A stretch of 64,000 bases of DNA from Mobula hypostoma (Eukaryota), in the NCBI RefSeq assembly GCF_963921235.1, contig NC_086107.1, positions 114,392,001 through 114,456,000 on the forward strand. Reading direction: 5' to 3'. The number at the start of each line of letters is the position of its first letter. Position 1 is the stretch's first letter. A model generated the notes under the pieces. That model was not told the origin of the DNA. It worked only from the letters and a program-made list of their open reading frames with translations, and did no database searches. Positions 25,831 to 34,800 of the stretch are shown here, piece by piece. Made by a program: the position numbers and the translations under genes.

Positions 25831-28800
25831 CTGGAGGGGAAGGAAACACTGTCAGATGGGGCAAAATTCCCACCACACCATCCCATCACACACCCCTGGG
25901 GTCAGACACAGGGAGAGGCTCCCTCTGCACCACCCTGTCACACACCCCTGGGGTCAGACACAGGACGAGGCTCCCTCCGCACTGTCCCATCACGCAGCCC
26001 TGGGGCAGACATGGAACGAGGTTCTCTCCACACCATCCTGTCATACACACCCTCTGCTTCCTAGCCTTTGTCCACCTTCCCAACACGCCATAGCGGTCAG
26101 TCTTTCCACCTGGAGGTGAGGGGGGTCCCCAGTGGAAGTCCCTTTACGAGGGACTTCTTCCCATGCACCTTGGAGATCTGGGGTGGAGGCTACTGCATAG
26201 AGAAGTGCCTTGTAATAAATTCTTTAGTCTGTACACGGATCTCCCAGCCGCATGTCACTTCTGCGGGCTGGAGGAGACCGTGTACCGCACGTACATGGAG
26301 TGTGTGAGACTGCAGCCCCTTTCCGCGTATTTGCGTGGGCTGCTTCTCGCCTTCTGGTTGCATTTCAGTCCCACCCTATTCATATATGGTCATCCAGTAA
26401 GGAGGGGGGCACAGAGGGATGAGGATGTCCTTGTCAACTTGCTCCTGATGCTGGCGAAAACTGCCATCCGTGGGTCTTGGAAACGGGTGGCGGGAGGATC
26501 TCCCAGGGCGGACTGCCTGGCTATGTTTAGGGAGTATATTCGTGCCCGGGTAAATATTGAAAAGGAACACGCGCAGTCCACAGCGACCGTAGAGGTGTTC
26601 CGGGCCCTTTGGCCTCCGCGGGGGTGGGGGGGAGTAATTGCCATCATTGATAGAGATGGAAACATTTTGGTTTAATGAGTATTGTCTATCTGCAGTGAAG
26701 TAATTGTGTTAGTCACTGTTTTGTATATAGAGCACCAAATTTGTAATAAAGAAACAAACACGATGCCTCCTGGCCTGCTGCGTTCACCAGCAACTTTGAT
26801 GTGTGTTGCTTGTAATAAAGAAAATTTTGTATTTAAAAAAAAGGGATCAGAGACTGACCAAGGCTCCCTCCACACCGTCCCATCACACACTCCCCCGGGG
26901 TCGGACACAGAGTGAAGCTCTCTCCACACCGTCCCATCACACACTCCCGGGGTCAGACACAGAGTGAAGCTCCCTCCACACCGTCCCATCACACACTCCC
27001 GAGGTCAGACACAGAGTGAATCTCCCTCCACACCGTCCCATCACACACTCCCCCGGGGTCGGACACAGAGTGAAGCTCCCTCCACACCGTCCCATCGCAC
27101 ACTCCCGGGGTCAGACACAGAGTGAAGCTCCCTCCACACCGTCCCATCACACACTCCCAGGGTCAGACACAGAGTGAATCTCCCTCCACACCGTCCCATC
27201 ACACACTCCCAGGGTCAGACAGAGTGAAGCTCCCTCCACACCGTCCCATCACACATTCCCGGGGTCAGACACAGAGTGACACTCTCTCCACACCGTCCCA
27301 TCACACACTCCCGGGGTCAGACACAGAGTGAATCTCCCTCTACACCGTCCCATCACACACTCCCGGGGTCAGACACAGAGTGAAACTCCCTCCACACCGT
27401 CCCATCACACACTCCCGGGGTCAGACACAGAGAGGAGTTGTGCTGACTGAGCTGGGAGAAATCGAAGGAAAACTACTGGATAAAGTTCGTGGAATACTTT
27501 GGAGGTGGCTCTAAAAGTCTCTTGGACATCTGAGTGAGTGACGGTGTTAGTGTGGAAGCTCGGTGTGGAGTTTTACTACCGGTTTGGACTGAGTTTGTTG
27601 GCAGCTGCTAACTGCGTAGCTCCCAGCTGTGGCCGCTGGCAACTCGCCAGGAAGCCGGTTCGCTCCAAAACCGGAGGCAAACGGCGTCGTTCCCCCCATT
27701 GACATCGGGGCAACGTTCCTCCTCCATTGTTTTCCTGATTTTCATCCGGTGTCGGAGCCGGAGCATCTGGAAGGACGTTTCGACCTCTCCCGGCCTGGGT
27801 TTCTGAAAGTTCAACGGAGCCTTTCCTGGGGCTGAGCCAGCAAGGAACTGTCGACTGCAAACTTTCCCGGCCAGTTATTCGACTCGCTCCAGGACTTCTA
27901 ACCGACACCGCTGTAAGATTCTCGGACTGGAAAGAGCGCCAGCATGCCGGACCGGTCTCCAGGGAGTCGCGGGCCTTCGGGGAGTTACGCACGGGCGGCT
28001 GCCTCCCCGGCCTCGGACAACGCCCTGTTTCGGTCGGTGAAGGTGGAACGTGGGGTGCAATGTATTTTGCGGCCTGGAATGACACTAGAAAAGTGTACGG
28101 AGGCAATGGAGGACCTTGTGGGGAAAGGTGGTATTCTGGCCACTGAGAAGGAGTTCGGAAAGGCAGTGTTCTATCTAGCGAATGAAGAGTTAGTGCACCG
28201 GGCTCTAAGCAGGGGAGTCACGGTAGAAAACATTTTTTTTTTTTACCGATGGAGCTGGTGACGGCCCCCACGCAACGTATCGTGCTTGGGCATGTTAAGC
28301 CTTTCATTCCGAATGAGGACCTGCTTCCCCCACTGGCCCGTTTAGGGCAAGTAAGGTCGGAGATCACTGCCATCCGACACAAATTTAAGAGACGCACCCT
28401 CCGCACCGTAATCTCTTTCCGGCGTCAGGTATTCATGCAGCTGGAAAGGGAGGACGACGTTGAGGGCCGGTTTACTGTCCGGCATGGGGGTGTGGACTAT
28501 CAGGTGTATTGGAGCTCCGAGCGCCCACGGTGCCATACGTGCAGGGAGGTAGGACACTTTCGGAGGGACTGTCCTAGCACCCGAAACGCTGGGGAGCCCA
28601 CTTCGAGCACCAGTGCCCCAGCTACCTCTGCCCCTGATCCTACTCCTGCGCCTGCATCTGACCCTGCCCCTGCCCCTGATCCTGCCCCAGCCCCTCACCC
28701 TGCCCCTACCCCTACGCCTGTCCCTACTCCTACAGTTGGGTCGGTCCCTGCTCCTCTCCCTGTGGTTCAGGTGGGGGACGGGGTGGAGTCTGTGCGGAGT

Positions 28801-31800: not shown

Positions 31801-34800
31801 ACCACAGTTTCCTACTGGGCACCCTGCAGGCTTTTGGGCTCGGACCACACTTTGTGGCCCGAGTTCAGCTCCTGTACTCTGCCGCAGAGTGCCTAGTTAA
31901 GATTAACGGATCATTGACAGGACCTATCCACTTCCGAAGAGGAGTGCGTCAAGGGTGCCCCATGTCCGGTCAACTGTATGCGATCTGTGTCGAGCCATTC
32001 CTCGGCCTTCTTCGGCGAAGGCTGACAGGTCTGGTTCTGCGCGAACCGGACATGGGGGTCGTCCTCTCGGCCTACGCCGATGACGTACTCCTCATGATGA
32101 CAGACCCCTGTGACCTGCAGAGGATGCGCGAGTGCCAAGATGTTTTCTCGGCGGCATCCTCCGCCAGGATCAACTGGGCGAAATGTTCCGGATTCTTGGT
32201 AGGTCAGTGGCAGATGGACTCCCTGCCGGAGGAGATGAGAGCTTTTGAGTGGAGCACCAGACGCCTTCTCTATCTGGGAGTCTACCTGAGTCCTTCTGGG
32301 GAGACCTGGCTGGCGAACTGGCAGGACCTGGAGACAAAGGTCATGGCCCGGCTAGGGCGCTGGTCAGGCCTTCTCAGGGTGCTTTCCTATCGAGGCAGGG
32401 TGGTGGTCATGAACCAGCTGGTGGCCTCCACGTTGTGGTACCGGATGGTCACCTTGGGCCCCCCTTCCCCTTTTGTTGCGAGAATGCAGAGGAAGCTAGT
32501 GGACTTCTTCTGGGGAAACAGGAAACACCGGGTCTCTGCAGCGGTTCTGAGTCTCCCAGTAGGAGAGGGCGGACAGTCGCTGGTGTGTGTACGCACAAGA
32601 CTGGCGGCTCTCCGCCTCAGGACTCTGCAGAGATTCCTGTACGCCGAGCACCCTCTCAGTGGACGTCTTGGCGACTTTCTTCCTCCGGAGGGGCTGCTGC
32701 CTTCACGAAGATATGCAGCTACCACCGGCAGGCGTCAGCCGTGCTGCTTTGCAGAGGCTGCCCGGCTTCTATCAGAACCTACTGAGAGTCTGGAACATGG
32801 TTGCCTCAGGCCGGGAATCCCCTCCTCTGGCAGAGGGTGGGGTCCTGGCCGACCCTTGCCCTGCCTCAGCGGATGTCGGTGCGGCTCCGGTGTGTGGATC
32901 GACTCAGGCTGAGCTGCTCGTCGGGCCCAGGCCCCGCAGCCTTACCCGAGAGACGAATCCACACAACTTGAGCCGTCTTTCATCGACACCCACAATCCCA
33001 TTCAGGGATGCAGGCAGGAGGTACCTTTATGGGCTGCTGCTCCACACCCTCCACTTCCTAGCCCTTGTCCACCGTCCCAACACACCATGGCGGTCGGTCT
33101 TCCCACCTGGAGGTGATGGGGGTCCCCAATGGAAGTCCCTTTACAAGGGAGTCCTCCCCATGCACCTTGGGGATCTCGGCTGGAGGGTGCTGCATAAAGC
33201 GGTGCCCTGAAATAAGTTCTTTAGTCTGTACACGGATCTCCCAGCCGCGTGTCACTTCTGCGGGCTGGAGGAGACCGTGTACCATATGTACGTGGAGTGT
33301 GTGGGGCTGCAGCCCCTTTTCGCGTATTTGCGTGGGCTGCTTCTCGCCTTCTGGTTGCATTTCAGTCCCACCCTATTCATATATGGTCATCCAGTAAGGA
33401 GGGGGGCACAGAGGGATGAGGATGTCCTTGTCAACTTGCTCCTGGGGTTGGCAAAAATTGCCATCCCTGGCTCCTGGAAAAGGGTGGCAGGAGGTTCTCC
33501 CCGGGCGGACTGCCTGGCAATGTTTAGGGTGTATGTTCGTGCCCGGGTGAACATTGAAAAGGAATACGCACAGTCCACGGCGACCGTAGAGGTGTTCCGG
33601 GACCGTTGGGCTCCATGGGGTGTAAATGCCATCATTGATGAAGATGGCAATATATTGGTTTAAGATGTATTGTCTGTTTGTAGTGTAGTAAATATGTTAG
33701 TCACTGGTTTTGTAAATATTGTATAGCACCGACATTTGTAATAAAGAATTTTGTTAAAAAAAAAGGGGTCAGACACAGAGTGAAACTCCCTCCACACCGT
33801 CCCATCACACACTCCAGGAGTCAGGCACAGACCGAGCCCTCTGTACCAAGCTGACTCACCGTACAACAGTGGTTGATGAAACGGGCAAGGTTCCCGGACT
33901 TGGTGGCGTCGATGATTGTGTCATGATCCACCCGGAACAGGTAGCTGCTGCCGATGCCTTCCTCCTCGTACCTCCGCTCCCGCATGTCAGCGACCATCTG
34001 CCAGGGAGGAGGGAGAAGCAGGGAGAGACGTGATGGTTGGGGCAGGAAACACAAGTTGGAAATGGAAGAGAGAGCTCAACAGAGAGGCAGGTGGGGTGGG
34101 GGGGGCGGAGAGGGGGAGGGAGTGGGCCGTGGGTTTGAGGGCACGTGGGCAGCAGAAACCACACGCACACACACAGTCCCTGTCCCCCTCGCGCACGGCC
34201 CCCATCCCCCTTGCGCACGGTCCCTGTCCCCGTTCCCATCGCGCACGGCCCCCGTCCCCATCCCCCTTGCGCACGGTCCCCGTCCCCATTCCCATCGCGC
34301 ACGGCCCCCGTCCCCCTTGCGCACGGTCCCCGTCCCCATCCCCCTTGCGCACGGTCCCCGTCCCCATCCCCCTTGCGCATGGTCCCTGTCCCCGTTCCCA
34401 TCGTGCACGGCCCCCGTCCCCATCCCCCTCGCGCACGGTCCCCGTCCCCATTCCCATCGCACACAGTCCCTGTCCCCTCGCGCACGGTCCCTGTCCCCGT
34501 CCCCTCGCGCACGGTCCCTGTCCCCGTTCCCATCGCGCACGGTCCCTGTCCCCGTTCCCATCGCGCACGGTCCCCATCCCCTCGCGCACGGTCCCTGTCC
34601 CCGTTCCCATCGCGCACGGCCCCCGTCCCCTCGCGCATGGTCCCTGTCCCCGTTCCCATCGCGCACGGTCCCCGTCCCCTCGCGCACGGTCCCCATCTCT
34701 CTCACACGAAGTGTCTCAGTCTCACATAAACACAATCAGTTTCTCTCTCTCCTCCACGTGCACAGGCAGACTCTCACACACACTCTTTCTCACGTACAGT

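What the first reader, a model, noticed from the sequence alone, without database searches (positions are those of the whole stretch)
26045..33830. Candidate sequence-specific Tx1 retrotransposon targeting a 52-bp intronic tandem repeat
Seen: two Tx1 copies lie in the same orientation in the last SETD1A intron, and in both the poly-A is followed by the same position of the 52-bp unit (A9|GGGGTCAGACACAGAG at 33765; A8|GGGATCAGAGACTGAC, a degenerate unit, at 26843). The full-length copy is flanked by an exact 16-bp duplication (27417-27432 / 33765-33780). The copies differ at many positions and have different 5' ends, so they look like independent insertions. Known: Tx1-clade LINEs are often target-specific (U2 snRNA, tRNA arrays, 5S rDNA, microsatellites, other transposons). 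Inference: this family's endonuclease recognises the 52-bp satellite. I do not recognise that as a described target, but cannot confirm novelty, and n=2.
Basis: partly seen in the sequence, partly recalled or inferred. Interest (0 to 1): 0.9.

Follow-up and report, generated by a model that had tools for sequence, protein, structure and literature searches.

The report
Satellite-seeking Tx1 LINE family
A young jumping gene of the Tx1 type lands about half the time at one exact spot of a dispersed 52-base repeat, which is a clear but expected habit for this class of element.

Summary
The sequence facts are confirmed. The main inference holds far beyond n=2. I read the first 100 of 134 genomic 3' ends of this LINE subfamily. 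In 50 the poly-A is followed by the same homologous position of the 52-bp minisatellite, right after CACACTCCC[A/G]. All 50 have the same orientation and none is out of phase. They lie on 13 contigs. That site makes up about 7 in a million strand positions of the 3.48-Gb genome. Different 5' truncation points and variable short duplications show independent insertions.

Two corrections are needed.
1. The "exact 16-bp target duplication" of the full-length copy is not a reliable TSD. In 38 of 39 full-length copies GGGTCAGACACAGAG sits directly before the element body. This includes five copies at non-satellite sites and copies in variant arrays whose local unit differs. The element therefore carries a satellite-derived 5' leader.
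2. Specificity is partial. The other half of insertions lie elsewhere, usually after a C-rich run and before G. An older subfamily hits the site in about 8 of 39 copies.

ORF2 is 53% identical to Xenopus Tx1 ORF2. Tx1-clade elements are known to target transposons, snRNA genes, microsatellites and satellites. This is a new member of a known kind.

The parts
25868..26053 (+). Degenerate units of the 52-bp minisatellite upstream of the truncated copy. The array is broken at ...CACACCCT, just before the GGGG of the next unit.
   Evidence: TRF period 52, 3.6 copies, 76% matches; sequence.
26046..26842 (+). 5'-truncated copy of an older subfamily of the same Tx1-like LINE. It corresponds to positions ~5611-6300 of the full copy and ends in A8 at 26835-26842. 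There is no TSD. The 5' joint lies in the microhomology CACACCCT.
   Evidence: 87% identity over 715 positions to 33043-33749; junction sequences.
26755..26809 (+). 55-nt insert in the 3' UTR of the truncated copy, flanked by the 14-nt direct repeat TTGTAATAAAGAAA (26741-26754 and 26810-26823). It is absent from the 39 other members of that subfamily that I looked at.
   Evidence: Other copies match only query positions 1-113/115 of 26640-26834 and run straight into their tails; sequence.
26843..27416 (+). Minisatellite array of about 11 units of 52 bp between the two copies. It is the target DNA.
   Evidence: TRF 26863-27432, 10.9 copies, 93% matches.
27417..27432 (+). GGGGTCAGACACAGAG. This is the satellite-identical 5' leader carried by full-length copies. 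It is identical to 33765-33780, so it was read as a TSD.
   Evidence: 38 of 39 full-length 5' ends have GGGTCAGACACAGAG (at most 1 mismatch) directly before AGGAG. Five of these lie in non-satellite DNA.
27433..33764 (+). Body of the full-length Tx1-clade LINE. 5' UTR to 27943. ORF1 27944-29214, split between two frames near 28250. ORF2 30003-33663, read in three frames with breaks near 32650 and 33210-33285. 3' UTR with AATAAA. A9 at 33756-33764.
   Evidence: ORF list; Pfam zf-CCHC, Exo_endo_phos, RVT_1; 53% identity over 888 aa to Xenopus Tx1 ORF2.
33765..33835 (+). About 1.3 satellite units downstream of the poly-A, starting at the preferred nick position. The next exon follows.
   Evidence: Sequence; phase script (row L108).
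25660..25841 (-). Last coding exon of a SET1-type methyltransferase gene (end of the SET domain, post-SET, stop). The LINE copies are antisense to the gene.
   Evidence: Frame ending ...ENCRGTLN then stop; Pfam SET profile 70-105.
33850..34010 (-). Preceding SET-domain exon of the same gene (approximate borders).
   Evidence: Open frame; Pfam SET profile 30-70, E 1.9e-4.

Best explanation
This is a young, multi-copy LINE family of the Tx1 clade with a strong but incomplete target preference for a dispersed 52-bp minisatellite.

Mechanism (shown and inferred):
- First nick (inferred from junctions). The element's machinery nicks the bottom strand opposite ...GTCCCATCACACACTCCC | (A/G)GGG... and primes reverse transcription on the poly-A tail. 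Every satellite insertion therefore has the same phase and orientation.
- Recognised part (inferred). It lies mainly on the 5' side of the nick, the C-rich CACACTCCC block, plus GGG just after it. Satellite variants that differ from +4 onward are hit at the homologous place. Off-target sites also tend to be C-rich before the nick and G after it.
- Second-strand cut (shown by TSDs). It is imprecise, 0-16 bp downstream.
- 5' leader (shown). Full-length copies carry at least 16 and up to at least 36 nt of canonical satellite sequence.
- Origin of the leader (inferred). Source copies are most likely transcribed from a start inside the satellite unit upstream of them.
- Role of the leader (inferred). 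It can pair with the target array and so help full-length 5' joining.

The two window copies are two separate hits, from two subfamilies, in one intronic array.
For: 1. Unbiased sample. The 28-nt 3'-end pattern has 134 exact matches. I read the first 100 listed places. Fifty of 100 flanks start at the same homologous site of the satellite. Of these, 48 score at least 40 in the phase script, and two have 16 satellite bases followed by another element. None is out of phase, all have one orientation, and they lie on 13 contigs. An earlier overlapping sample gave 17 of 31.
2. Chance expectation. The 31-mer spanning the site has 15,911 exact matches and 47,751 matches with up to 3 mismatches in 3.476 Gb. 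That is about 6.9e-6 of strand positions.
3. Independence. The 5' truncation points differ: element positions 5043, 4752, 5672, 4962 and 4126, and about 5611 in the window. Satellite lies on both sides of the five copies at 5043, 4752, 5672, 4962 and about 5611; the copy at 4126 (L043) has satellite at its 3' flank only. Where both flanks are satellite, TSDs of 0, 2-3, 6-7, 8-11 and 12 bp begin at GGG. Only 4 satellite pairs look duplicated after insertion.
4. Variant units (GGGACAGGGTCAGAC..., GGGCAGGGACAGTTAGA...) are hit right after the same CACACTCCCA.
5. Leader. 38 of 39 full-length 5' ends have GGGTCAGACACAGAG before AGGAG. Of the 39, 31 lie in arrays, 2 follow another copy's poly-A by exactly 16 nt, and 5 lie in unrelated DNA with 18-36 nt of leader. 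In variant arrays the leader is canonical, unlike the local unit.
6. Off-target sites with clear TSDs: ccctcact|AGGAG, cacaccca|AGGAT, gtctcccg|GCTTC, acacccctA|CCATT, and acaccctccc|GAT in another minisatellite. The first flank base is G in 35 of 50 non-satellite flanks.
7. Clade. ORF2 has an APE-type endonuclease and RT. It is collinear with Xenopus Tx1 ORF2 at 53% identity over 888 aa.
8. The arrays are autonomous. In 14 of 16 loci the array downstream of the poly-A ends in unrelated DNA, and 19 distal flanks share nothing with each other.
Against: - Half of the young copies (50 of 100) and about 31 of 39 older-subfamily copies are not in the satellite, so this is a preference and not strict specificity.
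- No biochemical test of the endonuclease exists. The role of the upstream block is inferred from variants and from about a dozen off-target sites.
- For full-length copies inside arrays the leader cannot be told from target DNA, so their true 5' junctions and TSDs are unknown.
- A transcription start in the satellite is inferred from only five non-satellite full-length copies with leaders of unequal length. No RNA data could be had.
- The sample covers only copies with an intact 28-nt tail and the first 100 of 134 places in contig order.
- Satellites may be under-assembled, which would raise the chance expectation, though not by the four orders of magnitude needed.
- The 9-mer core CTCCCRGGG occurs 67,609 times. 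A large share of those sites are satellite units, so part of the enrichment could come from a short motif.
Confidence: 0.8

Rival explanations
1. Short-motif nicking only. The endonuclease prefers a short C-rich|GG motif of the CTCCC|RGGG type. The satellite is hit often simply because it supplies a large share of the genome's copies of that motif. There is no recognition of the longer unit.
For: CTCCCRGGG occurs 67,609 times, against 16,253 for the reversed control. The satellite 31-mer alone gives 15,911 exact and 47,751 near matches. Off-target sites are C-rich before the nick, and G follows in 35 of 50.
Against: Only 5 of 50 non-satellite flanks begin with GGG, and most off-target sites lack the exact 9-mer. 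Roughly equal numbers of satellite and non-satellite 9-mer sites received 50 and at most 5 insertions. Use per site is therefore at least about tenfold higher in the satellite, which points to recognition beyond the 9-mer.
Confidence: 0.1
2. The 52-bp repeat belongs to the element. It would be a 5' monomer array like those of mouse L1, carried and spread by the LINE itself, so that LINE copies beside arrays reflect element structure and not targeting.
For: Full-length copies carry a satellite leader, and 31 of 39 have at least one further unit upstream. The first bases of the body (AGGAGCT) resemble the unit's continuation (TGAAGCT).
Against: - Full-length copies at non-satellite sites carry only 18-36 nt, never an array.
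- Arrays downstream of poly-A tails end in unrelated DNA in 14 of 16 loci.
- There are at least 47,751 satellite sites against 191 candidate 5' ends.
- Truncated copies lacking any 5' end sit inside arrays in phase.
- This reading would still need site-specific nicking to explain the 3' junctions.
Confidence: 0.06
3. One or a few chance insertions into the satellite were later multiplied with it by unequal crossing-over or segmental duplication. A variant: the satellite after the poly-A is a 3' transduction copied from one source locus.
For: Some neighbours are clear duplicates: L075/L076 (same truncation point, 877 bp apart), L089/L090, L056/L057 and L097/L098. Hits cluster on contigs C12, C40, C18 and C23.
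Against: - The 5' truncation points, poly-A lengths (8-21) and TSD lengths differ, and 13 contigs and three satellite variants are involved.
- In all 5 satellite-flanked truncated copies whose 5' flank is itself satellite (of 6 with a visible 5' junction), the array continues in phase across the insertion. That excludes transduction; in the sixth, L043, the 5' flank is not clean satellite.
- Paired 5' and 3' flanks agree: 14 satellite/satellite and 3 non/non.
Confidence: 0.03

Closest known systems
Tx1L of Xenopus laevis, the type element of the Tx1 clade, which inserts into the non-autonomous piggyBac transposon Tx1D
   Same: It is the closest named protein: 53% identity over 888 aa, with the same endonuclease-RT layout. 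It is also a poly-A LINE that lands at a defined place of another repeated sequence (introduction of PMC4494074, read). From recall, not checked here: the Tx1L target lies in a tandemly repeated internal segment of Tx1D.
   Different: The target here is a free-standing 52-bp minisatellite whose arrays share no flanking sequence, not a transposon. Only about half of the copies are on target. Full-length copies carry a target-derived 5' leader.
Other target-preferring Tx1-clade families: Keno (U2 snRNA genes), Kibi and Koshi ((TC)n and (TTC)n), crocodilian Tx1-Mar (a Mariner family), and families marked 'Sat' in Kojima 2015
   Same: Same clade, and the same habit of choosing multicopy sequence, including microsatellites and satellites (PMC4494074 introduction, section 15 and fig. 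3 legend). That paper counts a family as preferring a target when more than 20% of flanks hold it (passage seen). This family passes that rule.
   Different: The target sequence differs and the unit is much longer than the microsatellites. I could not see which families carry the 'Sat' label, because the figure is not held and Repbase is not on hand. Identity with one of them is not excluded.
R2 and R1 elements of rDNA, which are co-transcribed with the target
   Same: The transcript carries target sequence. Co-transcription is held to aid target-specific integration (PMC4494074 section 20, passage seen). The satellite leader found here fits that picture.
   Different: R2 uses a restriction-like endonuclease and belongs to another group. 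R1 and R2 are almost strictly site-specific. The leader's origin by co-transcription is inferred here, not shown.
YURE/Utopia elements with a weak preference for U2-derived satellites
   Same: A LINE with an incomplete preference for a satellite (PMC4640811, passages seen).
   Different: They belong to a restriction-like-endonuclease lineage, and their target derives from an snRNA gene.

Membership tests
Tx1 clade of non-LTR retrotransposons | ORF2 with an N-terminal apurinic-type endonuclease followed by a reverse transcriptase | tested here: met
   Pfam Exo_endo_phos at 6-226 (E 6.5e-18) and RVT_1 at 511-761 (E 1.4e-39). Xenopus Tx1 ORF2 has the same layout.
Tx1 clade of non-LTR retrotransposons | The RT/ORF2 sequence groups with Tx1 rather than with L1, R1, CR1 or other clades | tested here: inconclusive
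   The best named hit is Xenopus Tx1 ORF2, 53% identity over 888 collinear residues. Fish Tx1-like proteins score about 40%. I built no tree with other clades because no reference sequences of those clades were on hand. The similarity is high enough that I treat membership as very likely.
Tx1 clade of non-LTR retrotransposons | ORF1 with a CCHC zinc knuckle, and a 3' end with a poly-A tail (recalled as usual for the clade) | tested here: met
   zf-CCHC at ORF1 residues 94-110. AATAAA and A8-A30 tails in 100 of 100 sampled copies.
Target-preferring Tx1 families (criterion of Kojima 2015: more than 20% of flanks hold one sequence) | One kind of sequence in more than 20% of flanks, at a fixed position and orientation | tested here: met
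   50 of 100 in the young subfamily and about 8 of 39 in the older subfamily.
Strictly site-specific LINEs (R1/R2/TRAS type) | Nearly all copies lie in the target site | tested here: not met
   50 of 100 young copies and about 31 of 39 older copies lie elsewhere.
Strictly site-specific LINEs (R1/R2/TRAS type) | The endonuclease domain cleaves the target sequence specifically in vitro | not testable with these tools
   This needs recombinant protein and oligonucleotide substrates.

The most novel reading that the evidence does not exclude
The minisatellite may be both the landing pad and the transcription start of this LINE. Source copies would be transcribed from a start inside the upstream 52-bp unit. 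The resulting satellite leader would pair with the target array, which would explain why full-length copies are found mostly in arrays (33 of 39) while 5'-truncated copies mostly are not (about 5 of 28). LINE and satellite would then form a co-dependent pair, like R2 and rDNA but built on a non-genic repeat that populates introns.
Probability: 0.3. Interest if true: 0.6.

Novelty: new member of a known kind. Interest (0 to 1): 0.45.

Why it matters
- It gives a well-documented vertebrate case of a LINE that picks one nucleotide position of a 52-bp minisatellite. There are enough young copies, both on and off target, to read the recognition rule from the genome.
- It shows that a flank duplication next to a target-specific element can be a carried leader and not a TSD. 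This matters for annotating such elements.
- The endonuclease could serve as a comparison case for how APE-type LINE nucleases gain sequence preference.
- The arrays often sit in introns. Here one nearly fills the last intron of a SET1-type gene, so the family shows how such introns grow by several kilobases without harming the gene.

Tried and rejected
- RNA evidence. The look-up of sequencing runs listed no RNA holder. The four runs I laid are contigs of unknown kind. They cover all 30 bins but cannot show starts, strands or expression. One X2 contig joins 27402 to 33765. That is a satellite-to-satellite join and not proof of an empty site.
- Earlier findings of this scan: none for this genome.
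- Is the array part of a larger transposon, as Tx1D is for Tx1L? Nineteen distal array flanks shared no similarity except one duplicate within a locus. Rejected within the 160-500 bp seen.
- 3' transduction and amplification with the array: rejected (see the rival explanations).
- A wider 5'-flank table. The leader statistics therefore rest on 39 copies, the 40 best-scored of 191 candidates less the window's own copy.
For these copies only the 3' flank was read.
- Full-length versus truncated. The satellite fraction is 33 of 39 for full-length copies and about 5 of 28 for truncated ones. These come from differently drawn samples, so I report it as a trend only.
- Literature. Four searches found no paper on this family or this target. 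Repbase Reports and Dfam are not searchable here, so the family may already be catalogued.
- Resemblance of the site (pyrimidine run, CAG|G) to a splice acceptor: noted and not pursued.

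
Full report
**Where we are.** The window is G000:C45:114392001-114456000 of a 3.48-Gb, 200-contig eukaryotic assembly. The closest protein hit to the element's ORF2 (88% identity, a chimeric gene model) comes from a stingray. The genome is therefore probably that of a cartilaginous fish. I did not pursue this.

**Observation.** All sequence facts hold.
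- The full-length element spans 27433-33764 (6,332 bp) and ends in A9. GGGGTCAGACACAGAG follows at 33765-33780 and also stands at 27417-27432.
- A second, 5'-truncated copy runs from 26046 to A8 at 26835-26842. It is followed by GGGATCAGAGACTGAC, a degenerate unit in the same phase.
- Tandem Repeats Finder reports the 52-bp period at 25868-26053 (76% matches) and at 26863-27432 (93% matches).
- The two copies are 87% identical over 715 positions and have different 3' UTRs. They come from different subfamilies and cannot be one insertion duplicated with its flank.
- The flanking minus-strand exons are the last two SET-domain exons of a SET1-type gene. The LINE copies are antisense to it. I did not test whether the gene is SETD1A or SETD1B.

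**What the element is.**
- ORF1 (27944-29214) has a CCHC knuckle.
- ORF2 (30003-33663) has an APE-type endonuclease and a reverse transcriptase.
- The 969-aa open part of ORF2 is collinear with Xenopus Tx1 ORF2 at 53% identity over 888 residues. Fish Tx1-like proteins score about 40%.
- In the window copy ORF1 is split near 28250. ORF2 changes frame near 32650 and again at 33210-33285. This copy is therefore defective.

**Is the satellite a target? An unbiased sample.**
- The 28-nt 3' end of the young subfamily has 134 exact matches in the genome. I read the flanks of the first 100 listed places.
- In 50 of 100 the poly-A is followed by the same homologous position of the satellite. In 38 the flank reads GGGGTCAGAC (13) or GGGTCAGAC (25). 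The second form comes from units with CCCA before GGG, whose A merges with the tail.
- The remaining twelve break down as follows. One is a unit with a deletion. Nine are longer or shorter variant units (GGGACAGGGTCAGAC..., GGGCAGGGACAGTTAGA...) that are entered right after the same CACACTCCCA. In two, exactly 16 satellite bases are followed by the 5' end of another full-length copy.
- No flank holds the satellite in another phase or orientation. The hits lie on 13 contigs.
- An earlier sample of the 30 best-scoring loci, which overlaps this one, gave 17 of 31 junctions.

**Chance.** The 31-mer across the site occurs 15,911 times exactly and 47,751 times with up to three mismatches. The reversed control gives 0. 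That is about 6.9e-6 of the strand positions of the genome, or about 0.07% of the bases if each site stands for 52 bp. Random insertion would put fewer than one of 100 copies anywhere in the satellite.

**Independence.**
- Satellite-flanked copies have different 5' truncation points: element positions 5043, 4752, 5672, 4962 and 4126, and about 5611 for the window's truncated copy.
- In five of these six, satellite lies on both sides and continues in phase. In L043 (position 4126) only the 3' flank is satellite; its 5' flank is not clean satellite.
- In those five, duplications of 0, 2-3, 6-7, 8-11 and 12 bp all begin at the GGG. This excludes 3' transduction and wholesale amplification with the array.
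- Five pairs look like later local duplications: L033/34, L056/57, L075/76, L089/90 and L097/98. Four of them are satellite pairs. Removing them leaves about 46 of 95.

**The 16-bp "TSD" is a carried leader.**
- I fetched 100 nt upstream of 39 full-length 5' ends, the 40 best-scored of 191 candidates less the window's own copy.
- In 38 of 39, GGGTCAGACACAGAG (at most 1 mismatch, 33 exact) stands directly before the body's AGGAGCTG.
- Thirty-one of these lie in arrays. Two follow another copy's poly-A by exactly 16 nt.
- Five lie in unrelated DNA and still carry 18-36 nt of satellite sequence. One more keeps only 7 nt.
- In arrays of the variant GGGACAGGGTCAGACACAGGGTG..., the bases before the body are the canonical ...GGGTCAGACACAGAG and not the local unit. 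The 3' flank of the same elements is the local unit (L151/L103, L152/L102).
- The 16-mer therefore travels with the element. In the window it equals the 3' flank only because the array is of the canonical type.
- True TSDs can be read only from truncated copies and off-target copies, where they are 0-13 bp.
- The three head-to-tail junctions with exactly 16 nt fit a new insertion at the site re-formed by upstream target plus leader. That would mean 16 nt downstream of the nick are enough.

**Off-target half.**
- Of the 50 non-satellite flanks, 35 begin with G, 14 with GG and 5 with GGG. At least 9 lie in other minisatellites by a strict periodicity test.
- Where TSDs allow the site to be rebuilt, the bases before the nick are usually C-rich: ccctcact|AGGAG, cacaccca|AGGAT, ccctccca|ACACT, gtctcccg|GCTTC and acacccctA|CCATT.
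- One full-length copy sits in a 27-bp minisatellite right after ACACCCTCCC (L161/L053).
- I infer that the nick follows a C-rich block and precedes G. The satellite's CACACTCCC|RGGG would be the best site.
- The core 9-mer CTCCCRGGG occurs 67,609 times, against 16,253 for the control. A large share of those are satellite units. Non-satellite exact cores received at most 5 of 100 insertions against 50 for the satellite. Recognition therefore probably extends beyond the core.

**Older subfamily.**
- The 3' UTR of the window's truncated copy matches other copies only up to about 26754.
- Of 39 such copies, about 8 have the satellite at the same position. Five are clear (L174, L175, L189, L198, L204). 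Three are variant or degenerate (L173, L193, L205).
- The habit is older than the young subfamily and may be weaker there, or it may be blurred by age.

**The arrays stand alone.** In 14 of 16 loci where the far end of the downstream array is visible, it ends in unrelated DNA. In two it abuts another LINE copy. Nineteen distal flanks share no similarity with one another. The array is therefore neither an internal repeat of a larger common transposon nor simply the 5' monomer array of a downstream element.

**Full-length versus truncated.** Full-length copies are in arrays in 33 of 39 cases. Truncated copies with a visible 5' end are in arrays in about 5 of 28 cases. The samples were drawn differently, so this is only a trend. 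It is what a leader that pairs with the target would produce.

**Comparison with what is known.**
- Kojima (2015, PMC4494074; I read the introduction, section 15 with the fig. 3 legend, and passages) states that many Tx1-clade families show target preference. Examples are Tx1 in the transposon Tx1D, Keno in U2 genes, Kibi and Koshi in microsatellites and crocodilian families in a Mariner. The figure legend lists "Sat, satellites" among targets.
- The same paper notes that co-transcription with the target can strengthen target-specific integration.
- Kojima and Jurka (2015, PMC4640811, passages) describe weak satellite preference in another lineage.
- Four literature searches found nothing on this family or its 52-bp target. 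Repbase and Dfam could not be consulted.

**Verdict.** The finding is real, strong and neatly documented. It is a new member of a known kind and not a new kind of system.

Noticed in passing
window 26741-26823: The 3' UTR of the truncated copy holds a 55-nt insert (26755-26809) flanked by a 14-nt direct repeat (TTGTAATAAAGAAA). It is absent from the 39 other subfamily members I looked at. It looks like a small insertion with its own duplication, or a slippage product.
   Followed up: partly
window 22646-23108, 24194-24448, 34200-34679, 35498-36602: The neighbouring introns of the same SET1-type gene are also filled with strand-asymmetric, G/C-rich minisatellites of other periods (36, 41, 28/56 and 25 bp). 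Minisatellite-filled introns seem to be a feature of this locus or genome.
   Followed up: no
L069/L136 (C12:191.91 Mb), L080 (C22:120.64 Mb), L145 (C80:27.63 Mb): Head-to-tail pairs of full-length copies are separated by a poly-A and exactly 16 satellite bases. L022/L152 and the window show pairs separated by 200-590 bp of array.
   Followed up: partly
L004 and L014 (C75:42.95-42.99 Mb); L050 and L052 (C9, C12); L015/L127 and L164: Some off-target insertions recur in the same other repeats: a CGGTGTGCAGGG-type minisatellite, a GGGGGCGGATTTTCTGCGAGCC... repeat, and a GCCAACTGCCACAC... repeat. These may be secondary targets or later duplications.
   Followed up: no
satellite unit, e.g. window 26949-27000: The preferred site (a pyrimidine-rich run ending in CAG|G) resembles a splice-acceptor consensus. 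Several arrays end next to what look like exons (L001, L021, L023, L026).
   Followed up: no
L043 (C2:235.47 Mb): A 164-nt non-repeat segment together with part of the LINE is duplicated exactly within the locus. This shows local tandem duplication of LINE-plus-array blocks.
   Followed up: no
window 27250-27471 and 33688-33900 in runs X1, X2, X5, X24: The summed word depth of contigs over the satellite bins is hundreds to thousands of times that over the LINE body. This hints that the satellite is much more abundant in reads than the LINE and may be under-assembled. The tool warns that this figure is not a copy number.
   Followed up: no
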